DNA from: an uncultured bacterium
Lineage (GTDB): Bacteria > Patescibacteriota > Minisyncoccia > UBA6257 > GWB1-50-10
NCBI GenBank assembly: GCA_963713955.1
Contig: OY970216.1
Location: 637,483 to 701,482 of the forward strand
Direction of reading: 5' to 3'
Length of the DNA: 64,000 nt
The notes beneath the pieces are model-generated. The model was not told the origin of the DNA, searched no databases, and saw nothing but the letters and a program-made list of their open reading frames with translations. Of the stretch, positions 4,372-59,544 are shown piece by piece. The position numbers and the translations under genes were made by a program. The first letter of the stretch is position 1. Each line of letters opens with the position of its first letter.

Positions 4372-6801
4372 TCAAGACTTTTTCTTCGTCCCCTTTGTCC
4401 CGCCAGAAACGGAATGTCCGCCGAATTGGTTTCGGAGCGCGGAAAGAATGCGTCCCATATAACTCGGCGATTTTTTAGATCGCATGCGGAACTTGAAAGC
4501 ATCCTCAATGGCCGGCAACTTCATGTCCCGTTTGCGCGCCGTCAGGATCGTCCACTCGCCTTCTCCGGTCGCGACAACCGACCCCGAAATTCCTTTCAAA
4601 TCTTCACCGTGCGCGCGGAAGGCGTTCTCGAGCCACCCGACGAGCCTCGATTCGATGACGCTCCCCCGGTTGTAAACCGCCGCGACTTCTTTAAGATTCA
4701 ATTTGAAAGGAGATTTTTTCATGAGCGCGAAACCCTCCGCGAGCGATTGCATCATGCCGTACTCGATTCCGTTGTGCACCATTTTGACGAAATGCCCCGC
4801 GCCCGCTTCCCCGAAACGGGCATAGCCGCCGGGCACCGAGAGATCCGCGAAGAGTTTTCCAAGAGACTCAAACGTCTTCGGTTCCCCGCCTATCATGAGG
4901 GAACCGCCATGGCGCGCGCCGGAAGGCCCGCCCGAAAAACCGACGTCCATAAATCGTATGCCTCTTTTAGCGAGGAGTTTCGACCGACGGACCGTATCCT
5001 CGAAAAACGAGTTGCCGGCGTCGATGACGACGTCTCCTCTATCTAAAAACTTCGTCAAACCGCCTTTCCCGAAAAGAGCGTCATCCACTCCCTTTCCCGC
5101 CGTAATCATGAGCCACACAACCCTCGGGCGCTTGAGTTTCGATATGAGTTCCTCGATCGAGAAGGCCGTCTCGAAACCCTCCTCGCCGATCTCGTCCACG
5201 GGGCCCTGCGAGCGATTCGCCGCGACGACGCGCCATCCCTTGTCGCGAAGCTGGCGTGCGACGTTCCGACCCATCTTTCCCAGGCCGAAAATTCCTATCT
5301 CTCCCGCCGGGAGGCCGTTGAGAGAAACGCCGTTATCCAAAGCTTCCGCCTCGGCGGAAATCGAAGAGTTGTCCGGCCGGTAGTGCTTCAGAGGGACTGT
5401 GTTCTTCCGCCAGCCGGCGATTATGGAATCGATGAAGCGCCACATGGCGGATATTTCGGCGCTTGAGACGAAAAGCATCTGATTATCCGATATGCAATCG
5501 AGGAGGAGCTTTTCGTACTCTTCCGTATATTGCGTCCTCCGGCCAGTTTTCCGGAGATCGAAATCAAACGTTCGCTCTTCGAGCTCCATCGTGAGTCCCG
5601 GCTTCTTCGACCAAAAATGAATGGTAATACCCTCGGCGGGATCCTGTTTGAAAACAACGGAATTCCGGTAATGCTTGCCGGGCGGACAAAGGCAGGGCCG
5701 CGGATGCCTGAAAGTCACTTCTATTTCCGTTATCTCGCCGCGGGAGCCGGGATTCATGAGCCGTTTACCGGCTTCCATAATGAACGTCACGCCGCGCCAC
5801 CGGGGATGCGCAAGGGAAAATCTTGCCCTGAAGTAGGTCTCGGTATCGGAATCGGGACGCACGCCCTTCACGGAGCGGTACCCTTCGTACTGAGCCCGGA
5901 ATGTCTGTCGCTTGACTTCTTTAAAAGACAGAGGAACGAGCGTTTGGAGGATCGACGCGCGATTTTTCCTCACGGCGTCGGCTTCCAGGCTTTCCGGCTG
6001 ATCCATCGTGACCAAAGCCACCATCTGGAGAAGGTGGTTCTGGCCGACGTCCCGGAGCGCCCCCACCGCGTCGTAAAAGGGACCGCGGTCTTCCACCCCG
6101 ATGTTCTCGAATTCGCGGACGCGCACGCTCTCGATGAGTTCGTTCCCCCAATTGTCCTCGAAAAGATTGTTGAAGAACCGGAATGCCATCACGTTCTGGA
6201 ACGTTTCTTTGGCCAAGTAATGGTCAATCCGGTAAATCTGATCTTCGCTGAAAAGCTTGGCGAGTTCCGCGTCGAGTGCTTTTGCGCTCTTCTCGTCGCT
6301 GCCGAACGGTTTTTCCACGATTACCCTTGTCCATCCTTCTTCGGGTCCGCCGCACGGTTCGCTCAAGCCCGATGCCGAAATATTTTTCAGTATCTCCGGA
6401 TAAAAGCGCGGCGGCACCGCGAGGTACAAGAGTTTGTTCGAACACATACCCCAGCGACCGTCGACGGCTTTGAGCGCCTCGGAAAGCCTCGCGTAGTCGG
6501 CTTCGTTCTCAAACGTCCCCCGTTCGTAGGAGTAAAGCGAGAGGAATTTTTCAATGCGTTTCTTTTCGCGATTCACGTTTACATGTTTTTTGAGTATCTC
6601 CCTCACCCGTTCCCGGAAATCGCTGTCCGTTAGATCACGTCTCGCGAAACCGACGACGCGAAACATGCGCGGCAAAGAATCCTTCGCGAAAAGGTTATAG
6701 AGGGCCGGCACTATCTTCTTCGTCATGAGATCGCCGGTCGCTCCAATGATGACGACAATGGTCGGTATTCGAGGTTTTACGTCCTTCTTTTTTGCAGACA
6801 T
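4372..6801 (-). CDS. zwf: Bifunctional fusion: glucose-6-phosphate 1-dehydrogenase (Zwf) + short-form 6-phosphogluconate dehydrogenase (Gnd/YqeC-type)
   Basis: 809 aa. N-terminal part has IIGATGDLMTKKIVPALYNLF and RIDHYLAKE (G6PD signatures). C-terminal ~300 aa has IGIFGLGKMGRNVA, DAGNSFFEDT, GEAGAGHFVKMVHNGIEYGMMQ (6PGDH signatures). Confidence 0.85.
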   Translation of the reverse strand: MSAKKKDVKPRIPTIVVIIGATGDLMTKKIVPALYNLFAKDSLPRMFRVVGFARRDLTDSDFRERVREILKKHVNVNREKKRIEKFLSLYSYERGTFENEADYARLSEALKAVDGRWGMCSNKLLYLAVPPRFYPEILKNISASGLSEPCGGPEEGWTRVIVEKPFGSDEKSAKALDAELAKLFSEDQIYRIDHYLAKETFQNVMAFRFFNNLFEDNWGNELIESVRVREFENIGVEDRGPFYDAVGALRDVGQNHLLQMVALVTMDQPESLEADAVRKNRASILQTLVPLSFKEVKRQTFRAQYEGYRSVKGVRPDSDTETYFRARFSLAHPRWRGVTFIMEAGKRLMNPGSRGEITEIEVTFRHPRPCLCPPGKHYRNSVVFKQDPAEGITIHFWSKKPGLTMELEERTFDFDLRKTGRRTQYTEEYEKLLLDCISDNQMLFVSSAEISAMWRFIDSIIAGWRKNTVPLKHYRPDNSSISAEAEALDNGVSLNGLPAGEIGIFGLGKMGRNVARQLRDKGWRVVAANRSQGPVDEIGEEGFETAFSIEELISKLKRPRVVWLMITAGKGVDDALFGKGGLTKFLDRGDVVIDAGNSFFEDTVRRSKLLAKRGIRFMDVGFSGGPSGARHGGSLMIGGEPKTFESLGKLFADLSVPGGYARFGEAGAGHFVKMVHNGIEYGMMQSLAEGFALMKKSPFKLNLKEVAAVYNRGSVIESRLVGWLENAFRAHGEDLKGISGSVVATGEGEWTILTARKRDMKLPAIEDAFKFRMRSKKSPSYMGRILSALRNQFGGHSVSGGTKGTKKKS

Positions 6802-7954: not shown

Positions 7955-8311
7955 ATGAATCCATCCATGGAAGCAATTTACTACCCATGCCGCTACTGCG
8001 GAAACCAAGTTCCTCCCGATGCTTATTTTTGCCCCGCGTGCGGAAAGCAGCTGAGAGAGAAGGAACTTTCGACTTCCGTCGCAAAGCAGATACTGATCTA
8101 CGCCGTGAGCTTCTTTTTGCCTCCTCTCGGACTCATGTGGACTTTCAAGTACCTGAAGCAGGAGAGCCAAAAAGCCAAAAATATCGGGATCATTTCTCTT
8201 GTCCTCACCGTTGTTGCCATAGCCGTCGCCGTCTGGGTCACGGCCGACATCGTGAACGGCCTGAACTCGTACCTCAACAATCAGCTTAACGGAAGTTTGC
8301 AACTGTACTAG
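7955..8311 (+). CDS. Zinc-ribbon (CxxC..CxxC) membrane protein, hypothetical
   Basis: MNPSMEAIYYPCRYCGNQVPPDAYFCPACGK, then two predicted TM helices. AT-rich upstream taatgatataatg. Confidence 0.5.
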   Translation: MNPSMEAIYYPCRYCGNQVPPDAYFCPACGKQLREKELSTSVAKQILIYAVSFFLPPLGLMWTFKYLKQESQKAKNIGIISLVLTVVAIAVAVWVTADIVNGLNSYLNNQLNGSLQLY

Positions 8312-8355
8312 GAACCCACTTCAAAATCCTTCATAAGGCGAAAGGATACTTAGAA

Positions 8356-8438
8356 GGGAGGCTCGGTGAGGCGAAAAAGTGGGTAAGACTTGGCCTAGCG
8401 GCCCGGAGCGCACACTTTTTCGGCTTGCCGGGCCTCCC
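8356..8438. repeat. Nested-palindrome intergenic repeat, family A copy 1 (MITE/REP-like)
   Basis: TIR-like arms gggaggc..gaggcgaaaaagtg / cactttttcgg..gcctccc. Core gaaaaagtgtgcgctccggg(c/g)cgctaggcca(a/ga)gtctt is shared, reverse-complemented, with 54925-55077. Confidence 0.6.
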
Positions 8439-8480
8439 GCTCCCGGTTGCTACTTTTGAAATAAATTCTAAAATAAATGT

Positions 8481-8738
8481 ATGGAAACTTACAACGAGAA
8501 TTGGGGCGACATGCCCAATGCCGTGAAGGACCTCGAGAGAGCCCGGCAGTCGCTCGTCGAGGAGCTTGAGGCAATTAATTGGTACGAGCAAAGGATCGAG
8601 GCGACGGACGACGGCGAACTGAGAAAGATCCTCACCCATAACAGGGATGAAGAAAAGGAGCACGCAGCTCTCCTCTTCGAATACATCAAAAAGCGCGACC
8701 CCGAGCAGGCGCGCGCCCTCGAGAAGTCAGACATCTAA
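8481..8738 (+). CDS. Encapsulated-ferritin-like (EncFtn-type) small ferritin-like protein
   Basis: 85 aa; VEELEAINWYEQRIEATDDGELRKILTHNRDEEKEHAALLFEYIKKRD closely resembles the EncFtn core (..EELEAVDWYDQR..NRDEEKEHAA..). No encapsulin shell gene nearby. Confidence 0.65.
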   Translation: METYNENWGDMPNAVKDLERARQSLVEELEAINWYEQRIEATDDGELRKILTHNRDEEKEHAALLFEYIKKRDPEQARALEKSDI

Positions 8739-8744
8739 GATTAT

Positions 8745-13928: not shown

Positions 13929-14216
13929 TTACTTTTTGCTTTCGTAGTAGACCTTTAATCTCTTGGCTAAAAACCTTGACCCGCCTGTAGTTTTCAAATA
14001 GTTCTCTCTCCTTCTGGCATCTTCCTCCATGAGACAACCCTCAAGGTAAATCAACTTCAGTGGCCTGCGATACCGAGTTGAAAAAACTCTCCCTTCCCGA
14101 TGTTCCTTGAGCCTCCGATTGATATTATCCGTGGAACCGATATATCTTTTCCCATCTTTCAAGCTTTCCAACACGTATGCCCAGAAGATGCCATTCGAAG
14201 TTGTCCTACGGGGCAT
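13929..14216 (-). CDS. GIY-YIG nuclease-domain protein (small, stand-alone)
   Basis: GIFWAYVLESLKDGKRYIGSTDNINRRLKEHREG is a canonical GIY-YIG module; 95 aa. Confidence 0.8.
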   Translation of the reverse strand: MPRRTTSNGIFWAYVLESLKDGKRYIGSTDNINRRLKEHREGRVFSTRYRRPLKLIYLEGCLMEEDARRRENYLKTTGGSRFLAKRLKVYYESKK

Positions 14217-14264
14217 GATTCATTAACTTTAGCAAAACGAGTTCTCCCCCGCAACGTGAGCGTT

Positions 14265-14780
14265 CTACGGATACGTTATTTTCCTGTTCTTCATTCTCAA
14301 AAATGGCGTTATTTTGTGGAGCTTCGCCGTTATCCGACTTGAAATGTGATATACCTTCCATCCTTTCTTTGTCATCGCATCAGCAATGAGCGATCGGTGA
14401 CACCGCCAGGGCACCGCCTCCGCGCACATGATGGCCGTGTTTTTCTTTTGTGCGATCGCCTGGAGTTTTTTCAATCCCTCTTCGAACTTGGATGTTTGCA
14501 TGTAATCGGCAAACCCGCGGAACGACAAGTTCTCCCAGCCGGTATTCTTCGAATCCTTCTTCGCGTGCCGGAGTCCCCCCAGCTCTTCCCCTAGCCACTT
14601 ATACCCTATGCCCTGCTTCCTGAGAAAAATTCCTAAATTTCCTCTCCCGAACTGCGGATTATGCCGCGACTTCGGAATCGTCCGGACATCCACCAGTTCT
14701 TTCACGCCGTGGGCTTGAAGCATCGAGACGAAATATTCAACCGTCCGCGTCGAATGCCCGATGCTAAAAAGCCTCTTCAT
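14265..14780 (-). CDS. DUF488 family protein
   Basis: AIMCAEAVPWRCHRSLIAD matches the DUF488 CAE..P..CHR signature. Confidence 0.6.
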   Translation of the reverse strand: MKRLFSIGHSTRTVEYFVSMLQAHGVKELVDVRTIPKSRHNPQFGRGNLGIFLRKQGIGYKWLGEELGGLRHAKKDSKNTGWENLSFRGFADYMQTSKFEEGLKKLQAIAQKKNTAIMCAEAVPWRCHRSLIADAMTKKGWKVYHISSRITAKLHKITPFLRMKNRKITYP

Positions 14781-17958: not shown

Positions 17959-18357
17959 TTATACCACTATTTTCCTCAATATTTTCCTGTCGTATTCGTT
18001 GGAAAGTTGACCCTCACTGTCGACCCACATGATGCCTTCTGCCTCAAGCGGTTTCGGCTCGCTGTTCCACTCTTTCACGAGATACACGAAAGATGAACAC
18101 CCGTCGTCATATAAAAACTCCCCGATGAAAATCGGGTTTTTCACTTTGACTCCCAGCTCTTCTTCCATTTCCCTCACAAGAGTCACCTCGGGAATTTCTC
18201 CTTTTTCAATCAATCCACCGGGGAACGTGACAAGCCCGGCGAAATGATCTTCCTGGATTCCGCGCTTCTCCGCCAGAAACTTCCCGTTCCTGCTCAAAAC
18301 CCCTACCGCGAATTTCTTTACTTCCAACACTTCGAATTTATTATAGCAAAGTCCCAC
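17959..18357 (-). CDS. NUDIX hydrolase
   Basis: Nudix box GGLIEKGEIPEVTLVREMEEELGV. Confidence 0.85.
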   Translation of the reverse strand: MGLCYNKFEVLEVKKFAVGVLSRNGKFLAEKRGIQEDHFAGLVTFPGGLIEKGEIPEVTLVREMEEELGVKVKNPIFIGEFLYDDGCSSFVYLVKEWNSEPKPLEAEGIMWVDSEGQLSNEYDRKILRKIVV

Positions 18358-18408
18358 CGATATCCGTTATTCGGTGGGACGCAACTTTGCACAAGATCAC
18401 CCCATAGG

Positions 18409-18585
18409 TTAAGGAGTTTCCTCTTTGGCCTTCGCCTCAGCCTCATCCAAGAGCTTATTCAGATAATCCCTGAGATCCCTTAGATTCTCGACCGTGTTCT
18501 CGCACGGTCTTTCGGCTTGGCCACGGATCCCCACGTCTTCTACCTCGAACCCCTTACCCCCATCCTGAGTTATAAGTATTCTCAT
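18409..18585 (-). CDS. Possible small protein (58 aa), below the ORF-track cutoff
   Basis: MRILITQDGGKGFEVEDVGIRGQAERPCENTVENLRDLRDYLNKLLDEAEAKAKEETP, with AAGGAG 7 nt upstream of the ATG. Confidence 0.3.
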   Translation of the reverse strand: MRILITQDGGKGFEVEDVGIRGQAERPCENTVENLRDLRDYLNKLLDEAEAKAKEETP

Positions 18586-18886
18586 CTCTTCTTTCTCCTT
18601 ATGCTTTTATCAACGGTTTTGTTTTACAGAAACCAGCGCTATCCTCGTGCTTTGGTTATAAGTCACACTCTCCCATTAGTCAACACGGTGACTGATAACT
18701 TCAAGCAACCTCCGCGTTGTAGCATTCCTCGCAGTACACAATCTCCTTCCTGTCGGGAGCGTATGTCGTCTCGAAGATGACTCACAATTTTGGCAAATTT
18801 TTTGCTCGGCGGCCATGTAAAGATTATACCCCTTATGAAAGAGCGAAGTCGTCGATGTCATCGGCGACTTGTGAAACAATGAAGAT

Positions 18887-19004
18887 CCCTTGGGAGCCGA
18901 TTCTCCTCTTACTCCGGCAACATTAAGAGTAAGGGAGATCGGCTTTCCGAACCAGGAAGGCGGTAGGGTGATCGGCTGTCCACCCTCCCAATTCCATCCA
19001 AGGG
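18887..19004. ncRNA. Candidate structured RNA / nested-palindrome element of unknown class inside a 550-nt non-coding gap
   Basis: Closing helix cccttgg...ccaaggg; internal 17-20-bp hairpin gccgattctcctcttactc/gagtaagggagatcggc; second hairpin agggtg..caccct. Confidence 0.3.
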
Positions 19005-19070
19005 TACAAAAAAGGCACATGTGAAAAGAACGTCTTTCCATAGTGCCATGATCGACAAAGCACTGTCAAC

Positions 19071-19129
19071 AAAAAGGGCTCTCGGTACTAAAAGTTCACC
19101 TGCCGATGAGGTAGGTCCCTCAGGAGCCC
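19071..19129 (-). terminator. Possible terminator downstream of tspO (GGGCUC..GAGCCC + U5)
   Basis: Minus-strand stem with a long loop followed by UUUUU. Confidence 0.3.
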
Positions 19130-19134
19130 AAATA

Positions 19135-19605
19135 TTAGTTCAAAAGCCAAATTGAAAGGTTCAAATAAGCCGCGAACGTCACCCAGAGGAGATACGGGAG
19201 GAGAGCCCACATCGCAGCGTGCGAGATTTTCCCGAACGCCATAATCGTTGCGACAATCGCGATCCAGAGAGCAATGACCGCGATGAAAGCGGCGAGAGGT
19301 GCATGGAGACCAAAGAAAATAACGGACCACAATATATTGAGAACGAGCTGGATTACGAAAACGCCGACGGCTTCTTTGACGCCCGCCGTTTTCCATCCCC
19401 TCCTCCAGACAAGGAAGAGTGCAATACCCATCAGAAAATATAAGAACGTCCAGACCGGACCAAAAAGCCACGCGGGCGGCATGAGCACGGGCTTCGTGAG
19501 AGAAGCATACCAGCCGGCAATGTTCGGCGTCGTGAAGATCGCACCGATTACCCCCGCGAGCTCGGAGATTCCCACATATACCACGAGCCCAATAATATTT
19601 TTCAT
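19135..19605 (-). CDS. tspO: TspO/MBR family tryptophan-rich sensory protein
   Basis: Start at MKNIIGL; PPAWLFGPVWTFLYFLMGIALFLVWRR and LLPYLLWVTFAAYLN are TspO hallmarks. Confidence 0.8.
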   Translation of the reverse strand: MKNIIGLVVYVGISELAGVIGAIFTTPNIAGWYASLTKPVLMPPAWLFGPVWTFLYFLMGIALFLVWRRGWKTAGVKEAVGVFVIQLVLNILWSVIFFGLHAPLAAFIAVIALWIAIVATIMAFGKISHAAMWALLPYLLWVTFAAYLNLSIWLLN

Positions 19606-19687
19606 CGTCTTATCCTTAATCATCAGTCTTATTATATCTAAAAAGTTGAAAGGATTCTTCGGACAAACCTGAAGAACTCTTTCATTT

Positions 19688-20029
19688 TCAAACTGCATGG
19701 GACTGATTATTTTCCTCTCCTAGCCCAAGTTTCCTATCATCCCTCAAGAGGAACATTGCCATCGGCCCAAATGTAGCTGCGAGTACAACCCCCATCACCA
19801 CACGTGACAGAACCTTCTCCATAGATCCGTAGGAGGACCTTTCCTCCTTTAGCGCCTTTACAAATCCCCTCATCACAACGAACGCGGCATAGATCGATCC
19901 GACAGACCAGTAGATCGCCAATCCATAAAGAAACGGATTCTTAGAGAGGAAATTAAGGTGAAAAGGAATCAGGGTGAAAACCACAGCCGCCAGCAGGGCC
20001 ACCAGGTTAAATTTTTTCCAGTGCACCAT
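19688..20029 (-). CDS. Hypothetical small membrane protein (113 aa)
   Basis: Start at [23 protein letters not shown]. The upstream part of the track ORF is antisense to ybjQ-like and rejected. Confidence 0.45.
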
Positions 20030-21309: not shown

Positions 21310-21335
21310 GTTTTTATTCTATCACTCGCCGCCGA

Positions 21336-21420
21336 GTTATCCACAGATTTATGGAGAGCGGGAGGCCATATATTGGGAGATAACTCCGTTGCGGCTCCCG
21401 GTGCAAAGCCCCCGGGAGCC
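21336..21420. repeat. Intergenic repeat, family C copy 1 (gttatccacagatttatggagagcgggaggccatata..gataactccgttgcggctcccggtgc..cccgggagcc)
   Basis: Near-identical to 24298-24394; its 5' part recurs inverted at 31166-31196; the 3' hairpin recurs at 16273-16301 and 33153-33184. Confidence 0.65.
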
Positions 21421-24297: not shown

Positions 24298-24394
24298 TAG
24301 TTATCCACAGATTTATGGAGAGCGGGAAGCCATAATGAGAGCGGGAGGCCATATAATTGGGGGATAACTCCGTTGCGGCTCCCGGTGCGGAGTC
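24298..24394. repeat. Intergenic repeat, family C copy 2 (with an internal 20-nt duplication), just upstream of pilin-like gene 1
   Basis: agttatccacagatttatggagagcgggaagccataatgagagcgggaggccatataattgggggataactccgttgcggctcccggtgcggagtcc. Confidence 0.65.
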
Positions 24395-27767: not shown

Positions 27768-28577
27768 TTATAAGAGCTTTGACTGGTGTTTATACTCTTT
27801 AATTCTCTTTTCTGCCATCTCACAATATTCTGGTGAGACATCTATTCCTATATAGTTTCGCTTATTGTTCATCGCAGCAATTGCTGTAGTACCAGAACCC
27901 ATAAATGGATCCAAGATCATCTTGGCATTCGTCGCGGAAACAATCCGGTCAATTAAATTAACCGGAAAGGCAGCGGGATGTTCATTATTCATTTCTTGAG
28001 TAAATTCCCAAACATCGCCACGAGCATTAGCTTTTGGCGAAAGTTTGAACTTAGGCTTGGCAATCAGATAGATTACCTCGTAAGTTGGAAGGAAATAACC
28101 CGGGTTGAAATTCAATCCCCCTTTTCGCTTCCAGATAATAATCTGGCGAATTGGAAAACCACTGACGATATCCTGACGATCTTGCAGTAAACCACCCTGC
28201 ACGCGCCACTTGTGGTTGTAAAAAATTGCACCATCATCTGGTATAACTCGCATCATCTCTGTCAGGCAATCTCTTTGCCACTTAACATATTCTTCGTGTG
28301 GCATACAGTCATCATGGTTCGCATACCCTTTTTGAAGTGCGGCATTGGCCCATTTGCCACCTCGACCATCTTTCATTCCATTGCCAGTAGAATTCTTCAA
28401 GTTATAGGGCGGCGAAGTGACCACCAGATCAACCGCCCCATCCGGTATCTGTCTCATTACATCAACTGCATCACCACAAATGATCTTGTTTATAAAATCT
28501 TTGGGAAATCTAATGTCTTTTGAGATTTGTTTATTCGGAGTAATAGTTCCTCTTTTTAATACTGTTGATGGTTTCAT
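27768..28577 (-). CDS. DNA methyltransferase, beta-class N4-cytosine/N6-adenine (SPPY motif)
   Basis: DLVVTSPPYNL (motif IV) and LDPFMGSGTTAIAA (FxGxG SAM-binding motif I) in circularly permuted beta order, as in M.MvaI/M.BcnI-type m4C MTases. Confidence 0.85.
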   Translation of the reverse strand: MKPSTVLKRGTITPNKQISKDIRFPKDFINKIICGDAVDVMRQIPDGAVDLVVTSPPYNLKNSTGNGMKDGRGGKWANAALQKGYANHDDCMPHEEYVKWQRDCLTEMMRVIPDDGAIFYNHKWRVQGGLLQDRQDIVSGFPIRQIIIWKRKGGLNFNPGYFLPTYEVIYLIAKPKFKLSPKANARGDVWEFTQEMNNEHPAAFPVNLIDRIVSATNAKMILDPFMGSGTTAIAAMNNKRNYIGIDVSPEYCEMAEKRIKEYKHQSKLL

Positions 28578-28722
28578 GATGGGAAGGATATAAGCTAATA
28601 TTACCCCATTTTTCTGTATTTTTCATCATCGAATATTATACGCAGCCGTGTTTAGTCATTTATTTAGATCCTTCCTTTTTCCCTTTTCTCCAACCACCAT
28701 TTCTTGAAAAACGGCATAAAAA

Positions 28723-29884: not shown

Positions 29885-29937
29885 GTTCTCCTCCCACAAA
29901 CAAAAAAGCATGGCGTTTTCCTGCTATAATTGAACTA

Positions 29938-31165: not shown

Positions 31166-31196
31166 CCTCCCGCTCTCCATAAATCTGTGGATAACT
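31166..31196. repeat. Family C repeat, 5' module in inverted orientation, between paralogs 2 and 3
   Basis: cctcccgctctccataaatctgtggataact is the reverse complement of agttatccacagatttatggagagcgggagg. Confidence 0.6.
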
Positions 31197-37909: not shown

Positions 37910-37994
37910 AACGCTATGAATAAATGTAGCTAAAATAGGTGTTTTTGTAAACTCTGGCTTGAAAAAATCAATAAGATGGCATATACTTCAACCA

Positions 37995-38559
37995 GAGCAT
38001 ATCAAGCGACAGCCCGCCTGTATCCGTAAGGTTACGGCGGGAGGAAAGTCGGGACACCCTCGTTCGCTTCGCTCACAGCTTACGAAAGTACCAAAACATA
38101 CGAAATTACGAAACGGCAGATTTCGTACTTTCGTAGATATTCGTAACTTGCGAGCGGAGCGAGCGGAAACGTAGCGGCTAACAGCCGTCGTTCGGAAGAA
38201 TAGAGGTACGAGCAGTGACGTCTTTCGGCGAAAGCCGGAGGAAGACCCAATCCCAAGCTTGCTGGTCTAACTCCGCCATAGGGACAACAAAGCGGAGATG
38301 AAACGGCTAAATCCTTACGGGGTGCAAGGCCGTGCTCGCCAACAGCTACGCAGTTGCTGGCGAGAGCGCCGCCAGAGCCCGAGAGTAATTGAAGGCCCAG
38401 ACAGATTGTCGCGCCGGTTTTGTCTACCGCAGGTAGATACAAAACCGAGCGTCCTGAGTTTTTCGAAGGACATAAATCCCTCGACCCTGCTCGGGATTCT
38501 CGATTTTGCACCACCTCCGGTGGGCAAAATCGGAACAGAATCCCGCTTATGATATGCTC
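37995..38559 (+). ncRNA. rnpB: RNase P RNA (bacterial, unusually long at ~565 nt)
   Basis: P4 5' strand CGGGAGGAAAGUCGGGAC (universal GGAAAGUC); P4 3' strand ACAGAAUCCCGCUUAU near the 3' end; P1 GAGCAUAUCAAGCG pairs with CGCUUAUGAUAUGCUC. Track ORFs in this span (38080..38571 etc.) are rejected. Confidence 0.8.
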
Positions 38560-43330: not shown

Positions 43331-43489
43331 ACTTAGTCGCCTCCCACTCTATAGCTTCCACCATCCGATCGTTTGTTCATGGACAGCAAAAACTGTTTAT
43401 GATGATGAACTTAGAGTTTACACAATACCACAAATCAATAGCGTGGTCAATGTGCGCAAAATGCCGGATTCAAATATAATAAATTCACT

Positions 43490-45235
43490 ATGGCGAAACT
43501 GGAGAAAGTAGAAGAAATCAGGCATTCCCTGGCGCACCTCCTCGCAGCCTCAGTTTTGAAAAAGTTTCCGAAGGCGAAATTGGGGATAGGACCGGTCATC
43601 GAGAACGGTTTTTATTACGATTTCAAGCTCCCCCGCCCCTTGACGCCGGACGATTTGAAAGAACTGGAACACACGATGCGTGCCCTCGTTATGGAAAAGC
43701 TCCCCTTCAAGGGAGAAAAGCTGACTCCGCTTAAGGCCAGGAAAGCGTTCAAGGATCAACCGTTCAAGCTGGATTTGATAAAGGAGTTCGTGAAAGGAAA
43801 GAAACCCCTCACGATCTATAACACCGGCGATGTTTTTTTCGATCTCTGCCGCGGGGGGCACGTAAAAAACACGTCGGAGATAAACACCGACAGTTTCAAA
43901 CTCACCTCGATTGCCGGCGCCTACTGGCGGGGCAACGAGAAGAATCCCCAACTCCAAAGAATCTACGGCGTCGCGTTCGAAACCAAAAAGGAACTGGACG
44001 ATTATCTCGCGATGCTCGAAGAAGCCAAGCGACGCGATCACAAGAAGCTCGGAGTTGAACTCGATCTTTTCACCTTCTCCGACCTCGTGGGCGGTGGCCT
44101 TCCCCTCTGGACGCCCAAGGGAACGCTCGTCCGAAATCTCCTCGACGACTTCGTTTGGGAACTCAGAAAAAAAGCCGGCTATGAACAAGTGGACATTCCG
44201 CACATAACCAAAAAGGAGCTGTATGAAACGAGCGGCCACTGGGAAAAATTCAAAGACGATCTTTTCAAAATCCAGACGCGCGAGGGACATCTCTTTGCGA
44301 TGAAACCCATGAACTGTCCCCACCACACGCAGATCTACGCGCGGCGTCCCTGGAGCTACCGTGATCTTCCTCAGCGATATGCCACGACGACGAAGGTGTA
44401 CCGCGACGAGCAAACCGGCGAACTTTCGGGCCTCTCGCGCGTCCGGGCAATCACTCAGGATGACGCCCATGTCTTTTGCCGTCTTTCCCAAACCAAAGAA
44501 GAATTCCTGAAAATTTGGGATATCGTCCAGACGTTTTATAAGCCGTTCGGCTTCAAGCTCCAAATAAGAGTTTCCACTCATGATCCAAAACACCCCGAAA
44601 AATATCTCGGAGACAAGAAGAAATGGAAATTTGCCGAAGAGATGCTCCAAGAGATCGCCGAAAGCAAAAAAGCTGATACGTTCGAGGGTATCGGCGAAGC
44701 CGCTTTCTACGGCCCGAAACTCGATTTCATGGGAAGGGATTCTCTCGGCCGCGAATGGCAGGTTGCAACCATCCAGCTCGACGTCGTGATGCCCGAACGG
44801 TTCAACTTGACTTGCATCAACGAGGAGGGCAAACCGGAACGGATTGTCATGATCCACGCCGCGATCATGGGATCCATCGAGCGGTTCCTTGCGATTATCA
44901 TCGAACACCTGGCCGGCGATTTCCCCGTGTGGCTCTCGCCCGTCCAGGCGCGCGTGATCCCTATATCAGACCGGCACCGCGAATACGCGGAAAAAGTTTT
45001 GAAAATGCTGAAGGACAACAACGTGCGGGCCGACGTCGCGTCAAGCGGCGAGACGCTCGGGAAAAACATCAGGCAAGGAGAACTAGAAAAAATCCCCTAT
45101 CTCCTCATCGTGGGAGATAAAGAAATCGAGAGCCGATCAGTCAACGTCCGGGAACGGCATAAAAAAGAAACATCCACGGTGTCCGTGGAAAAATTCATAG
45201 AGAGAATAAAGAAAGAAGACGAAGAGAAAAGATGA
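43490..45235 (+). CDS. thrS: Threonyl-tRNA synthetase (no N-terminal TGS domain)
   Basis: Starts in the second N-terminal (editing) domain (RHSLAHLLAASV); class II motifs including MKPMNCPHHTQIY; anticodon-binding C-terminus. Confidence 0.9.
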   Translation: MAKLEKVEEIRHSLAHLLAASVLKKFPKAKLGIGPVIENGFYYDFKLPRPLTPDDLKELEHTMRALVMEKLPFKGEKLTPLKARKAFKDQPFKLDLIKEFVKGKKPLTIYNTGDVFFDLCRGGHVKNTSEINTDSFKLTSIAGAYWRGNEKNPQLQRIYGVAFETKKELDDYLAMLEEAKRRDHKKLGVELDLFTFSDLVGGGLPLWTPKGTLVRNLLDDFVWELRKKAGYEQVDIPHITKKELYETSGHWEKFKDDLFKIQTREGHLFAMKPMNCPHHTQIYARRPWSYRDLPQRYATTTKVYRDEQTGELSGLSRVRAITQDDAHVFCRLSQTKEEFLKIWDIVQTFYKPFGFKLQIRVSTHDPKHPEKYLGDKKKWKFAEEMLQEIAESKKADTFEGIGEAAFYGPKLDFMGRDSLGREWQVATIQLDVVMPERFNLTCINEEGKPERIVMIHAAIMGSIERFLAIIIEHLAGDFPVWLSPVQARVIPISDRHREYAEKVLKMLKDNNVRADVASSGETLGKNIRQGELEKIPYLLIVGDKEIESRSVNVRERHKKETSTVSVEKFIERIKKEDEEKR

Positions 45236-55077: not shown

Positions 55078-55773
55078 TTTTCTTAAGAGGCGGAGTTGTA
55101 CTTTTTCCCACACGAGTTCGTGTATTTCGGGGACAGTCATAAGCCGCCCCTTTTTGACACATTCTATCAAAGTAAAATCCTTCGGGAACATTTTTACCAT
55201 TTCGAGGTACGTACGTTCGGCCTGCCTTAAGTGGGAGATATCTTTTTCGTGGATATCCCTCATTTTGCCGCCCAAATACTCACGGGATCTTTTCCTGCCA
55301 ATGAGATCGTAGGCGATCTCGGCCGGCACGTGAAGTATGATCGAGAGATCGGGCTTCGGGATGCCCATGATCCCGTATTCGAAATCGTAAACCCAGTGCA
55401 GAAATCTTTTTCTCTCCACCCTGTTCCCTACCTTGGCGCCTTGGTGGCCCATGTTAGAAGGAACATATCGGTTGGAAACGACGACGTGGCCGGACGAGAC
55501 CCATTTTCTTATTTTTGGTCCGACGTCGAATCGATCGAGGCCGTAAAAAATAGATGCCCGATAGGGGCCGACATCGCGCCAACCTCCATAGGAGCCGTTC
55601 AGATACCGTTCCACGAAAAAAGCCGACGGTTTCCCGTACTGCGGAAAGTCGAATGTCGCCGTCTTGAAACCTTCGGATTTAAGCCTTTTCAAGAGGAGGT
55701 CAAATTGTTTGCTTTTGCCGGAGCCATCGATGCCCTCGAGAACTAAAAACTTTCCTCTTCGCATGGCCTTCAT
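55051..55773 (-). CDS. tmk: Thymidylate kinase
   Basis: Start at MKAMRRGKFLVLEGIDGSGKS (P-loop); the last ~9 codons lie inside repeat A. Confidence 0.75.
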   Translation of the reverse strand: MKAMRRGKFLVLEGIDGSGKSKQFDLLLKRLKSEGFKTATFDFPQYGKPSAFFVERYLNGSYGGWRDVGPYRASIFYGLDRFDVGPKIRKWVSSGHVVVSNRYVPSNMGHQGAKVGNRVERKRFLHWVYDFEYGIMGIPKPDLSIILHVPAEIAYDLIGRKRSREYLGGKMRDIHEKDISHLRQAERTYLEMVKMFPKDFTLIECVKKGRLMTVPEIHELVWEKVQLRLLRKDSGRRKSG

Positions 55774-55833
55774 TATAGCACAAGAAGAGAGACTCCCGAG
55801 CGCCTTCAATGCTCAGGAGTCATAGAAATAAAC

Positions 55834-55921
55834 GAGCTCAGTAATCCCGCGAAGGCTAAGACTTGGGCGTCGCCCCGGAGACTGCCTGAGCGGGAATACT
55901 GAGCGAGTTGATTTAATCAAC
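55834..55921. repeat. Repeat family B copy 2 (inverted) plus gttgatttaatcaac palindrome overlapping the rplK stop; terminator-like
   Basis: gagctcagtaatcccgcgaaggctaagacttgggcgtcgccccggagactgcctgagcgggaatactgagcgag. Confidence 0.55.
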
Positions 55922-56338
55922 TACCTCTATACCCATGTTCTTCGCGGTGCCGGCAATAATCTTTATCGCAGCCTCAATATTGTTGGCGTTCAGATCAATC
56001 ATCTTTTTCTCGGCGATCTTTTTCAAATCTTCGCGTGTCACTTTCCCAACCGACTTGCGGCCGGGTTCCGCAGAAGCCTTATCGATGCCCGCAGCTTTTT
56101 TGAGAAGCGCGGAAGCCGGCGGCGTCTTTAGCTTGAATTCAAAAGACCGGTCCTCGTAGATTGTGATCTCCGCAGGAATCACGTCCCCCTTCATGTCCTT
56201 CGTCGCTTCGTTGAACTGCTGGCAAAAAGCTCCAATATTCACGCCGTGTTGTCCCAAGGCCGGTCCTATGGGAGGCGACGGATTCGCTTCTCCAGCCTTT
56301 ATTTGAAGTTTCAAGACTGTTTTTATCGGTTTCGCCAT
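55913..56338 (-). CDS. rplK: 50S ribosomal protein L11
   Basis: [35 protein letters not shown]. Confidence 0.9.
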
Positions 56339-56346
56339 AGTATAGC

Positions 56347-58543: not shown

Positions 58544-58996
58544 TTAAAACGGAATATCTTCAGTTTTTATCTCAGAATCCTCCAGATTGATCTCCGGCAA
58601 CTCCTCCTCTTTTACTTCATCGCTCGTGGAAGAATCACCGCGGCTCTCCGGCGCGGCAGCCCCGAAATTGGTCCGTTGCCCGAGTTGCATCCTCTCGGCG
58701 ATTATTTCCGTCGTCTTATGCTGAATTCCCTGCTTATCCTGCCAAGAACGCGTTTGGAGCCTTCCCTCAATCAAAACAGAACTGCCTTTTCTCAAAAACT
58801 GGTTAGCCACTTCGGCCTGTCTCCCCCAGAGCACGACGTTGTGAAACTCGGTCCTCTTCTGCTTCTGCCCGGATCGGTCTGAAAAGAAACTGTTGGTCGC
58901 GACTCCAAACGAGCAAACCGACTGCCCGCCGGGCGTTTGCCTGAGCTCAGGGTCCCTCGTCAGGTTCCCGAGAATGAACACTTTATTGAGATTCAT
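58544..58996 (-). CDS. ssb: Single-stranded DNA-binding protein
   Basis: MNLNKVFILGNLTRDPELRQTPGGQSVCSFGVATN OB fold; acidic C-terminus ending ..DIPF. Confidence 0.9.
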   Translation of the reverse strand: MNLNKVFILGNLTRDPELRQTPGGQSVCSFGVATNSFFSDRSGQKQKRTEFHNVVLWGRQAEVANQFLRKGSSVLIEGRLQTRSWQDKQGIQHKTTEIIAERMQLGQRTNFGAAAPESRGDSSTSDEVKEEELPEINLEDSEIKTEDIPF

Positions 58997-59107
58997 CCCG
59001 TTAGAAAATTAAACCGAATACATTTATCGATGCGACCTTCTTTCCCATTATAGCACTCCCGGGAAAACGATGAAATGCTCATAATTTTCCAACGGGATGA
59101 ACGGGTT

Positions 59108-59542
59108 TTAATTCAAAATTTCCTCGATCTTCTTTTCGAGGCTCTCATTGGTCAAAACGTCTTCTTCCTTTTTGCGAGCCGGCGACGGATAGGCAGCTCT
59201 CTCCCGGAACGATGAAAAGCCGCTTCTCGCGTTGTCGACGGTTTCCCTCGGGGGTGCCGCTTTCCTTTCATCCATACCCGTCACGGCGTATCGGAGAACC
59301 ATGTGATCAAGGTTCAGGGAATCCCCGATCTTCCGCACCGCTTCCGGACGGGAGGCAAAGGTCACATTCCCCAGAAAAGCGAAGCGTTCCTTTTTAATCG
59401 GGTAGGCGAGCTGCATCTTATGGATTTCTTTCTCCTCCAGAACGTCACATCCGTTCGCGCGGAGCACGTCCTTCACGGGTGCGCCGTTTTCTTCCTTCAG
59501 CCAGAAGGTTATTTCATATTTTTTCTTCTCGGTTTCTTCCAT
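59108..59542 (-). CDS. rpsF: 30S ribosomal protein S6 (with C-terminal extension)
   Basis: KKYEITFWLKEE..KEIHKMQLAYPIKK; sits in an rpsF-ssb-rpsR arrangement. Confidence 0.8.
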   Translation of the reverse strand: MEETEKKKYEITFWLKEENGAPVKDVLRANGCDVLEEKEIHKMQLAYPIKKERFAFLGNVTFASRPEAVRKIGDSLNLDHMVLRYAVTGMDERKAAPPRETVDNARSGFSSFRERAAYPSPARKKEEDVLTNESLEKKIEEILN

Positions 59543-59544
59543 AA

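What the first reader, a model, noticed from the sequence alone, without database searches (positions are those of the whole stretch)
18586..19134. 550-nt non-coding gap with multiple stable hairpins and a 118-nt closed multi-stem element (18887-19004)
No credible ORF. The track ORF 18676..19041 is Arg/Ser-rich with no signals. The region contains several GC hairpins and a domain closed by cccttgg/ccaaggg holding a 17-20-bp hairpin and an agggtg/caccct hairpin. It could be a novel ncRNA (6S-, SRP- or tmRNA-like candidates were not confirmed: no tRNA-like T-arm, no GGAAGCAGC SRP motif), a large REP cluster, or a degraded gene.
Basis: seen in the sequence. Interest (0 to 1): 0.5.

Follow-up and report, generated by a model that had tools for sequence, protein, structure and literature searches.

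The report
Missed zinc-ribbon gene among terminator hairpins
The 549-base "non-coding" gap is an ordinary spacer between genes: it holds terminator-like hairpins, one very stable hairpin of unknown role, and an overlooked 38-codon zinc-ribbon gene whose frame is broken by what is probably a one-base assembly error.

Summary
The gap (18586-19134) and its hairpins are real, and no Rfam family matches it even at E<=10. It is not one RNA gene. Read on the minus strand, the strand of all neighbouring genes, it contains:
- two terminator-like hairpins with U-runs directly after TspO;
- the 118-nt domain (19004-18887);
- a weak hairpin;
- TATAAT-N6-ATG at 18828-18814, a start signature that is 7-fold enriched in this window and precedes real genes;
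- a 38-codon CxxC-x17-CxxC zinc-ribbon ORF (18816-18701), readable only if one base is restored at 18783/18782;
- the leader of an orphan 58-aa ORF.

The repaired peptide hits PF23477 (27.0 bits, E 3.6e-6) and TIGR04272 (E 2e-5). The essential gene rpoC carries the same kind of 1-nt break, so both are probably assembly errors.

The 118-nt domain folds well (z -5.5), but nearly all of that comes from one 50-nt hairpin (z -6.2). The closing stem and second hairpin add only z -2.2. The domain is single-copy in the 64-kb window and no homologue was found. The organism has no close relatives in the searched collections, so conservation could not be tested. Its function remains open. Overall the finding is ordinary and of low interest.

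The parts
19076..19129 (-). T1: branched hairpin closed by GGGCUC/GAGCCC, 5 nt after the TspO stop codon, followed by UUUUUGUUG (19075-19067). Terminator-like.
   Evidence: Folds. Alone it is not significant (z -1.47). The U-run is read from the sequence. The simple terminator scan did not report it, because its loop exceeds 8 nt.
19014..19047 (-). T2: hairpin GGCAC..UGGAAAGA-CGU-UCUUUUCA..GUGCC followed by UUUUUUGU (19013-19006). Probable second intrinsic terminator of TspO.
   Evidence: -14.5 kcal/mol, z -3.66, 0 of 200 shuffles as good. The U6 run is on the minus strand only.
18887..19004 (-). 118-nt three-way-junction domain. P1 is 19004-18998 / 18893-18887. Hairpin A is 18994-18980 / 18963-18949 (15 bp, 5 of them G-U, formed on the minus strand only). 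Hairpin B is 18944-18926 / 18915-18895. Function unknown.
   Evidence: z is -5.52 (minus) and -4.45 (plus). Beyond hairpin B the closure is marginal. Single copy in the window. No Rfam hit.
18895..18944 (.). Hairpin B: near-perfect 18-19-bp hairpin with two single-T bulges and a 10-12-nt loop. It is the only strongly non-random part of the domain, and its pairs work equally well on either strand.
   Evidence: z -6.15 (minus) and -5.77 (plus), 0 of 200 shuffles as good.
18932..18981 (+). Two direct copies of AGGGWGATCGGCTNTCC (18932-18948 and 18965-18981, 15 of 17 identical, 33 nt apart). An inverted partial copy lies at 18891-18905. The core is ATCGGCT; the full GATCGGCT is present only in the two direct copies.
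   Evidence: families D1 and D3; no other good copy in the window.
18846..18870 (-). Hairpin C (AAGUCGCCGAU / AUCGACGACUU), 17 nt upstream of the TATAAT box. It is weak.
   Evidence: I3; z -1.79, with 12 of 200 shuffles as good.
18823..18828 (-). TATAAT box, 6 nt upstream of the ATG at 18816. Leaderless-type promoter and start signature of the zinc-ribbon gene.
   Evidence: TATAAT-N6-9-ATG occurs 12 times in the window against 1.8 expected (maximum 7 in 200 shuffles). Ten of the 12 open ORFs of 88-581 aa, including ThrRS, the probable L1 gene (55764) and TspO.
18701..18816 (-). Unannotated CxxC-x17-CxxC zinc-ribbon gene of 38 codons. MAAEQKICQNC is read at 18816-18784. One base is missing at 18783/18782. 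VIFETTYAPDRKEIVYCEECYNAEVA plus the stop is read at 18781-18701.
   Evidence: PF23477 scores 27.0 bits (E 3.6e-6) with Gly at the junction, 22-23 bits with X or Glu, and gives no hit with no residue there. TIGR04272 scores 24.2 bits (E 2e-5). The native second half alone scores 18.3 bits (E 0.0019).
18655..18701 (-). Hairpin D (GUUAUCAGUCAC / GUGACUUAUAAC), directly after the zinc-ribbon stop codon.
   Evidence: I2; z -1.89, not significant.
18595..18600 (-). AAGGAG Shine-Dalgarno sequence, 9 nt upstream of the ATG (18585) of the orphan 58-aa ORF. That ORF is probably co-transcribed with the zinc-ribbon gene.
   Evidence: Sequence read. The ORF is an orphan.

Best explanation
The gap is a composite intergenic region read on the minus strand, not a single ncRNA gene. 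Steps marked "shown" rest on tool results. Steps marked "inferred" rest on sequence signatures only.

1. Transcription of TspO ends at two tandem hairpin-plus-U-run terminators, T1 and T2. The anatomy is shown; function is inferred.
2. About 190 nt further on, a TATAAT box 6 nt before an ATG starts a leaderless-type mRNA. The signature and its enrichment are shown; the transcription start is inferred.
3. That mRNA encodes a 38-residue CxxC-x17-CxxC zinc-ribbon protein. Homology is shown after a 1-nt repair.
4. It probably also encodes the SD-led orphan 58-aa ORF (inferred).
5. The frame break at 18783/18782 is most likely a 1-nt deletion error of the assembly (GG read as G, so that Gly-12 is lost). 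The essential gene rpoC in the same window has the same kind of break.
6. The 118-nt domain lies between terminator T2 and that promoter. Its only strongly non-random part is one long hairpin. My best guess is that it is a minus-strand RNA hairpin at the end of TspO read-through transcripts. It would act as an extra terminator, a 3'-end stabiliser or an insulator in front of the next promoter, like the other long intergenic hairpins in this genome. This last step is inference only.
For: **Gene orientation and annotation.** All neighbouring genes are on the minus strand.

**Terminators.** T2 has z -3.66 and a U6 run on the minus strand only. T1 has a U5 run.

**Start signature.** TATAAT-N6-9-ATG occurs 12 times against 1.8 expected. 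Ten of the 12 open real genes, and one is the ATG at 18816.

**Zinc-ribbon gene.**
- The two halves sit in two frames and align colinearly to one 37-position profile at positions 7-35.
- Adding exactly one residue gives the family's defining x17 spacing. Removing it abolishes the hit.
- Cys8, Cys11, Gly12, Pro21, Val27, Cys29 and Cys32 are shared with intact family members from L006 (68.8 bits) and L008 (48.1 bits).
- Small proteins of this family are real, bind zinc, and are often unannotated (PMC12704099).

**Assembly error.** The two rpoC ORFs, joined across a 1-nt shift, align without interruption to B. subtilis beta' residues 616-806.

**No other coding signal.** The other six-frame fragments of 29 aa or more, ten in all, give no Pfam hit below E 0.06 (the shorter fragments were not scanned).

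**No known RNA.** No Rfam family matches.

**The domain.** Its significance is mostly hairpin B. Other long intergenic hairpins occur after the L11 and S6 genes, after dnaE and elsewhere.
Against: - There is no expression data, so every transcript boundary is inferred.
- T1 alone is not significant, and the simple terminator scan reported neither T1 nor T2.
- If T1 and T2 terminate efficiently, little read-through would reach the domain, so a role in the TspO 3' end is weak.
- The PF23477 score reaches the curated cut-off only with my choice of Gly at the junction. TIGR04272 stays below its cut-off (24.2 against 36).
- The word-index protein search found no close homologue of the repaired peptide.
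- The three copies of the sequence (window, L001, L002) are identical over 7-12.5 kb and probably derive from the same data. They neither confirm nor exclude an error.
- The closing stem, the G-U-rich minus-strand hairpin A (p about 0.02) and the triple ATCGGCT-core motif are not explained by a simple terminator or stabiliser role.
Confidence: 0.6

Rival explanations
1. The 118-nt three-way junction, possibly together with hairpin C as its terminator, is a novel lineage-specific small RNA transcribed on the minus strand.
For: - The domain has z -5.52 on minus against -4.45 on plus.
- Hairpin A forms only on the minus strand, through 5 G-U pairs.
- Closure beyond hairpin B is reached by only 5 of 300 shuffles.
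- The domain sits between a terminator (T2) and a hairpin followed by a U-rich stretch.
- Rfam thresholds do miss divergent RNAs in this organism: RNase P scores only 40 bits.
Against: - No TAnAAT box lies upstream of the domain on either strand. The only candidate is TTGACA-N18-CACTAT, which has a poor -10 box (sequence).
- Hairpins A and C are individually at chance level.
- There is no homologue and no covariation.
- No Rfam match even at E<=10.
Confidence: 0.12
2. The domain is a DNA-level element. It could be an array of protein-binding sites (two direct copies and one inverted copy of an ATCGGCT-core motif) upstream of the zinc-ribbon promoter. Or it could be the relic of a small mobile or palindromic element.
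For: - The 17-nt direct repeat is 15 of 17 identical at 33-nt spacing, with an inverted copy.
- The domain lies about 70-190 nt upstream of the inferred promoter.
- Hairpin B is built almost only of Watson-Crick pairs and is equally stable on both strands.
- The domain still folds as single-stranded DNA (z -3.51).
Against: - The motif occurs nowhere else in the 64-kb window.
- No regulator, transposase or recombinase gene is adjacent.
- No target-site duplication flanks CCCTTGG/CCAAGGG (sequence).
- There are no copies elsewhere in the window.
Confidence: 0.12
3. The zinc-ribbon ORF is a true pseudogene, with a real 1-nt deletion in the organism, rather than an assembly artefact.
For: - The sequence is identical in the window, an ENA assembly and a Logan assembly.
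- The protein is unusually short for the family and lacks the basic tail seen in L006 and L008.
- It scores only at or below the cut-offs.
Against: - rpoC, an essential gene, carries the same kind of 1-nt break and cannot be a pseudogene.
- The start signature is intact and both halves are free of further stops or substitutions at the seven family-invariant positions.
- The three records are 100% identical over 7-12.5 kb, so they are probably not independent.
Confidence: 0.2
4. The domain is a cis-regulatory 5' leader (riboswitch or attenuator) of the zinc-ribbon / 58-aa operon.
For: - A three-way junction lies directly upstream of the gene on the same strand.
- It is followed by hairpin C and a U-rich stretch.
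- The repeated motif offers alternative pairing partners.
Against: - The promoter signature TATAAT-N6-ATG puts the transcription start at the ATG, downstream of the domain.
- Blocking the 5' arm of hairpin B does not produce the alternative pairing.
- No Rfam riboswitch matches.
- The two loops are not complementary to each other (read from the sequence).
Confidence: 0.05
5. The gap is a REP/BIME-like cluster of repeated extragenic palindromes.
For: Several palindromic hairpins lie in one spacer.
Against: - The hairpins are unrelated to each other in sequence.
- The gap has no second copy in 64 kb by blastn at word size 7 or by covariance model with filters off.
Confidence: 0.03

Closest known systems
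CxxC-x17-CxxC small zinc-ribbon proteins (Pfam PF23477 zf_Tbcl_2; NCBIfam TIGR04272 cxxc_cxxc_Mbark)
   Same: - Two CxxC knuckles lie exactly 17 residues apart after the 1-nt repair.
- The CxxCG knuckle, the central Pro, and V-Y/F before the second CxxC are present as in intact members.
- It is a small protein missed by annotation, like the zinc-binding Methanosarcina mazei members (PMC12704099).
   Different: - The frame is broken in the assembly.
- It has only 38 residues, with no Gly/Arg-rich or basic tail.
- The score is at the Pfam cut-off and below the NCBIfam cut-off, so it is a divergent member at best.
Tandem Rho-independent (intrinsic) terminators
   Same: Both are GC-containing hairpins immediately followed by a U5-U6 run, on the sense strand only, directly after a stop codon (T1, T2).
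   Different: Both stems are interrupted or branched. The simple consensus scan did not call either. T1 is not better than shuffles.
Three-way-junction riboswitch aptamers (for example the purine riboswitch) and small structured sRNAs
   Same: A P1 stem closes two hairpins, in roughly 120 nt.
   Different: - No Rfam match.
- No loop-loop complementarity.
- The stems are much longer and near perfect.
- The element lies upstream of the inferred promoter, not in a 5' UTR.
- Conservation is untested.
REP/BIME extragenic palindromes
   Same: An imperfect palindrome in an intergenic spacer.
   Different: Single copy in 64 kb. No RAYT/TnpA gene is seen nearby.

Membership tests
CxxC-x17-CxxC zinc ribbon (PF23477 / TIGR04272) | Two CxxC motifs separated by 17 residues in one reading frame | tested here: inconclusive
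   Met only after one nucleotide is restored at 18783/18782. As assembled, the two CxxC motifs are in different frames. With one residue added the spacing is exactly 17. With none (x16) the Pfam hit disappears.
CxxC-x17-CxxC zinc ribbon (PF23477 / TIGR04272) | Profile score at or above the curated cut-off | tested here: inconclusive
   PF23477 scores 27.0 bits against a cut-off of 27 with Gly at the junction, and 23.4 (Glu) or 22.2 (X) otherwise. TIGR04272 scores 24.2 against a cut-off of 36.
CxxC-x17-CxxC zinc ribbon (PF23477 / TIGR04272) | Zinc binding by the four cysteines | not testable with these tools
   Shown experimentally only for M. mazei members (PMC12704099).
Known bacterial ncRNA families (tmRNA, 6S, SRP, OLE, riboswitches, ribozymes; Rfam 15) | Covariance-model match | tested here: not met
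   There is no gathering-level hit in the gap. At E<=10 over 18350-19250 there are only two noise hits (mir-542, PVT1_3), both outside the 118-nt domain. ARAGORN finds no tmRNA.
Intrinsic terminator | Stable GC-containing stem-loop directly followed by a U-run on the transcribed strand, downstream of a stop codon | tested here: met
   T2 has z -3.66 and U6. T1 has U5 but z -1.47. Neither was called by the strict consensus scan, which requires a loop of 3-8 nt. Termination itself was not tested.
REP/BIME repeat cluster | Many related copies dispersed in intergenic regions of the same genome | tested here: not met
   There is no second copy in the 64-kb window. The rest of the 804-kb genome was not available.
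Riboswitch / 5' leader | Location inside the 5' UTR of the regulated gene | tested here: not met
   The genome's own start signature places TATAAT 6 nt before the ATG, so the domain is 71-188 nt upstream of the inferred transcription start. This is inference from sequence, not from mapped 5' ends.
Novel structured RNA (general criterion) | Conservation with compensatory base changes in homologues | not testable with these tools
   The only other copies are 100% identical. All neighbouring proteins are singletons at 90% identity. The best TspO relatives are at most 58% identical over the full match (one 46-residue fragment, L044, is 61%), and their loci give no DNA or covariance-model match to the gap. 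No hit in viral contigs, phages or plasmids.
Retron ncRNA (msr/msd) | Adjacent reverse-transcriptase gene | tested here: not met
   No RT domain appears among the called genes within the 6 kb fetched on each side.

The most novel reading that the evidence does not exclude
The 118-nt three-way junction (19004-18887, minus strand) is a previously undescribed, lineage-specific structured small RNA of an uncultivated bacterium with no sequenced close relatives. Its repeated ATCGGCT-core motifs would serve as alternative pairing or protein-binding sites.
Probability: 0.1. Interest if true: 0.45.

Novelty: new member of a known kind. Interest (0 to 1): 0.15.

Why it matters
The value is mainly practical.
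- An apparently empty 549-nt spacer in a poorly sampled genome hides a real small-protein gene of a family that annotation pipelines routinely miss.
- This assembly carries 1-nt deletions that break genes, including rpoC. Other "gaps" and "pseudogenes" in this genome should be read with that in mind.
- The organism uses a simple, highly predictive start signature (TATAAT 6-9 nt before ATG). It can be used to find further small genes in this genome.
- The unexplained long hairpin is a modest lead. It would become interesting only if transcription and conservation were shown.

Tried and rejected
**Known RNA families.** Rfam at gathering thresholds and at E<=10 gave nothing. ARAGORN found no tmRNA.

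**Repeats inside the window.** Nothing was found by blastn at word size 7, by motif search with 3 mismatches, or by covariance model R1 with filters off.

**Comparative genomics.**
- Exact-protein look-ups returned only 100% identical copies of the same contig.
- TspO relatives in GTDB genomes and JGI metagenomes are at most 58% identical over the full match (one 46-residue fragment is 61%), and their loci give no DNA or R1 match to the gap.
- Homologue searches with the 58-aa ORF and with NUDIX returned only the query itself.
- An exhaustive HMMER search with the 58-aa ORF found only coiled-coil noise.
- The repaired zinc-ribbon peptide found no word-sharing relatives.

**Other collections.**
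- Phage and plasmid blastn gave no match.
- Viral-contig pattern scans gave 85 and 2 matching loci. R1 found nothing in any of them at E<=1, and the two three-motif loci, which I read, are unrelated sequence.

**Other hidden genes in the gap.** Ten further six-frame fragments gave no Pfam hit below E 0.06.

**A riboswitch-like alternative fold.** Blocking the 5' arm of hairpin B does not recruit the repeated motif.

**Programmed frameshifting in the zinc-ribbon gene.** Rejected. The only slippery-like run (A AAA AAT) would lead straight into a TGA and lose the first CxxC (sequence).

**Genetic code 25 (TGA read as Gly).** Rejected. The long ORFs read normally under table 11.

**Retron, integron attC and MITE readings.** Rejected for lack of a reverse transcriptase, of core sites and of target-site duplications.

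**The other apparent gaps of about 440-550 nt in my ORF list** (8303-8744, 55810-56346, 58997-59544). These turned out to hold ordinary genes shorter than 150 aa, including the L11 and S6 genes.

Full report
**Observation**

The stretch 18586-19134 lies between the stop codon of a TspO/MBR gene (19135-19698, minus strand; Pfam E 3.5e-48) and the start of a 58-aa ORF (18409-18585, minus strand). A NUDIX gene follows. All neighbouring genes are on the minus strand.

The gap folds better than dinucleotide shuffles on both strands: z -4.06 on plus and -3.61 on minus. It folds to -59.0 kcal/mol on the minus strand (z -5.52) and -54.3 on the plus strand (z -4.45). The sequence features are therefore real.

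**How special is the structure?**

Taken apart, the signal is uneven.

| Element | z (minus) | z (plus) |
|---|---|---|
| Hairpin B (18895-18944; 18-19 bp, two 1-nt bulges) | -6.15 | -5.77 |
| T2 (19047-19014) | -3.66 | not folded |
| Hairpin A of the domain | -1.74 | -0.94 |
| T1, hairpin C, hairpin D | -1.5 to -1.9 | not folded |

Holding hairpin B fixed and shuffling the rest of the domain gives z -2.2 on minus (5 of 300 shuffles as good) and z -1.7 on plus (18 of 300). The "closed multi-stem" architecture beyond one long hairpin is thus only marginally better than chance.

A sliding 120-nt scan of the window, corrected for GC content, shows about eight other places that fold comparably well. 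Several lie directly after genes (dnaE, L11, S6) or just ahead of a gene start. One is a region that overlaps a divergent RNase P RNA. Long stable intergenic hairpins are a habit of this genome.

**Known RNA families**

Rfam 15 finds only one tRNA in the whole window at gathering thresholds. In a permissive scan of 18350-19250 at E<=10 it finds only two noise hits, both outside the domain. ARAGORN finds no tmRNA. The permissive mode does work in this organism: it recovers a full-length but low-scoring RNase P RNA elsewhere (40 bits, E 6.5e-11).

**A hidden gene**

On the minus strand an ATG at 18816 opens MAAEQKICQNC. Two bases later, in another frame, the sequence reads VIFETTYAPDRKEIVYCEECYNAEVA-stop, ending at 18701. 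Joining the two with one residue for the two left-over bases (GA at 18783-18782 plus one missing base) gives a 38-residue peptide with CxxC-x17-CxxC.

| Junction residue | PF23477 zf_Tbcl_2 (cut-off 27 bits) |
|---|---|
| Gly | 27.0 bits, E 3.6e-6, profile positions 7-35 of 37 |
| Glu | 23.4 bits |
| X | 22.2 bits |
| none (x16 spacing) | no hit |

- With Gly the peptide also hits NCBIfam TIGR04272 "CxxC-x17-CxxC domain" at 24.2 bits (E 2e-5, cut-off 36).
- The second half alone, as encoded, scores 18.3 bits (E 0.0019) against the same profile.
- Intact family members happened to lie in two fetched TspO loci: L006 at 68.8 bits and L008 at 48.1 bits. They share Cys8, Cys11, Gly12, Pro21, Val27, Cys29 and Cys32 with the repaired peptide.
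- Small proteins of this family in Methanosarcina mazei were detected by mass spectrometry, bind zinc, and were mostly unannotated (PMC12704099).
- Ten other six-frame fragments of the gap, each of 29 aa or more, hit nothing in Pfam below E 0.06.

**A start signature**

The ATG at 18816 is preceded by TATAAT (18828-18823) at a distance of 6 nt. TATAAT-N6-9-ATG occurs 12 times in the window, against 1.8 expected from block shuffles (maximum 7 in 200). Ten of the 12 open ORFs of 88-581 aa, including ThrRS, the probable ribosomal protein L1 gene, TspO (at 19623) and pilin-like genes. Relaxed TAnAAT versions precede NUDIX, DUF3850 and others.

In sigma-70-type promoters transcription starts about 7 nt after the -10 box (established knowledge). 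This pattern therefore implies leaderless or nearly leaderless mRNAs. That is an inference, with no 5'-end data behind it. It marks 18816 as a genuine gene start. It also places the 118-nt domain upstream of that promoter rather than in its mRNA.

**Frameshift: error or decay?**

In this window rpoC is split into two ORFs (61101-63248 and 59545-61125). The split is a shift within GCAGAGAGAGGATAGCC. The joined peptide aligns without interruption to B. subtilis beta' residues 616-806 (E 1.4e-52). An essential gene cannot be a pseudogene, so the assembly contains at least one 1-nt deletion. The zinc-ribbon break is of the same kind: one base missing, plausibly GG read as G, which would restore the family's CxxCG.

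The other records that carry this locus are 100% identical over 7-12.5 kb and are probably not independent. I therefore judge an assembly error more likely than true decay, by about 3 to 1. Only the reads can settle it.

**Anatomy on the minus strand**

1. TspO stop codon.
2. T1 (19129-19076), followed by UUUUU.
3. T2 (19047-19014), followed by UUUUUU.
4. The 118-nt domain (19004-18887).
5. Weak hairpin C (18870-18846).
6. TATAAT (18828-18823).
7. The zinc-ribbon gene (18816-18701).
8. Hairpin D (18701-18655).
9. AAGGAG (18600-18595).
10. The 58-aa ORF (18585-18409).

The U-runs follow T1 and T2 only on the minus strand, which fits termination of TspO. The strict consensus scan did not call them, because their stems are interrupted. 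The 58-aa ORF has a good Shine-Dalgarno sequence but no homologue anywhere.

**The 118-nt domain**

It contains two direct copies of AGGGWGATCGGCTNTCC, 33 nt apart, and one inverted partial copy that forms the other arm of hairpin B. The motif occurs nowhere else in the window.

- Blocking the 5' arm of hairpin B does not bring the second copy into play, so there is no sign of a switch.
- No TAnAAT box lies upstream of the domain on either strand. The only candidate is a TTGACA-N18-CACTAT with a poor -10 box (sequence).
- The domain is single-copy in the window by blastn and by a covariance model with filters off.

**Search for homologues**

None of the following gave a relative of the gap:
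- Exact-protein look-ups gave only the same contig.
- TspO relatives in GTDB genomes and JGI metagenomes are at most 58% identical over the full match (one 46-residue fragment is 61%), come from unrelated lineages, and their loci give no DNA or R1 match to the gap.
- The 58-aa and NUDIX proteins have no relatives that share words with them. All four neighbouring proteins are singletons at 90% identity.
- Phages, plasmids and viral contigs gave nothing.

Conservation and covariation could therefore not be tested.

**Conclusion**

The finding is a composite, mostly ordinary intergenic region. The part that can be positively identified is an overlooked small zinc-ribbon gene with a leaderless-type start, probably broken only in the assembly, together with the terminators of the upstream gene.

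The part that motivated the finding reduces largely to one very stable hairpin of unknown role. My best guess is a minus-strand RNA hairpin that acts as an additional terminator, 3'-end stabiliser or insulator. A small RNA or a DNA-level element is not excluded.

Interest is low (0.15). The most novel reading that remains open, a new lineage-specific structured sRNA, has a probability of about 0.1.

Noticed in passing
window 59545-63248 (break at about 61105-61125), minus strand: rpoC is split into two overlapping ORFs by an apparent 1-nt deletion in GCAGAGAGAGGATAGCC. The joined peptide aligns continuously to B. subtilis beta' residues 616-806. This indicates indel errors in the assembly.
   Followed up: yes
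window 37994-38466, plus strand: A full-length but low-scoring match to bacterial RNase P class A RNA: 40.2 bits against a gathering score of 100, E 6.5e-11, model positions 1-367 over 473 nt. It lies next to tRNA-Thr, is missed at gathering threshold, and overlaps a spurious 163-aa ORF. It is probably a divergent RNase P RNA with insertions.
   Followed up: partly
whole window; for example 43475-43492, 55764-55777, 19623-19636 and 18814-18828: TATAAT (or TAnAAT, often TGnTAnAAT) sits 6-9 nt before the start codon of many genes: 12 exact cases against 1.8 expected. This implies widespread leaderless mRNAs and gives a useful start-site predictor. It also suggests that TspO starts at 19623 (162 aa) rather than 19698.
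   Followed up: partly
L006 1853-2179 (also present in L026) and L008 3328-3501: Intact CxxC-x17-CxxC small protein genes (PF23477 at 68.8 and 48.1 bits) lie about 230-480 nt upstream of TspO, on the same strand, in two unrelated MAG loci. They are the only such genes in 247 kb of TspO loci. In the window the family member lies about 320 nt downstream of TspO. This may be a real TspO / zinc-ribbon linkage or a coincidence.
   Followed up: partly
window 21335-21370, 24299-24334, 31166-31196 (and near 29900-29937): A 30-36-nt repeat (..AAAAAGCCAGGACATTTTCCTGCTATAAT..) is the shared promoter and start region of paralogous pilin-like (N_methyl / Laminin_G_3) genes.
   Followed up: no
window 28531-28626, minus strand: The only other TATAAT-N8-ATG that does not open a long ORF opens a 31-codon ORF (MKNTEKWGNISLYPSHHETINSIKKRNYYSE). 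It may be another unannotated small gene.
   Followed up: no
window 58970-59110 and 55810-55950, minus strand: Long imperfect hairpins fill the spacers after the S6-like gene and after the L11 gene. The first contains a TATAAT box and sequesters the ATG at 58996 of the next ORF (150 aa, not identified). The second lies just upstream of the probable L1 gene (start 55764 or 55809). They may be regulatory structures.
   Followed up: no
window 4372-6801, minus strand: A single 809-aa ORF combines glucose-6-phosphate dehydrogenase domains with 6-phosphogluconate dehydrogenase domains. This looks like a gene fusion of two consecutive pentose-phosphate enzymes.
   Followed up: no
window about 13980-14265, minus strand: A small GIY-YIG nuclease-like ORF (..FWAYVLESLKDGKRYIGSTDNINRRLKEHREG..) lies just upstream of a 242-aa release-factor-like gene that has PCRF and RF-1 domains but is shorter than usual for a release factor.
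   Followed up: no
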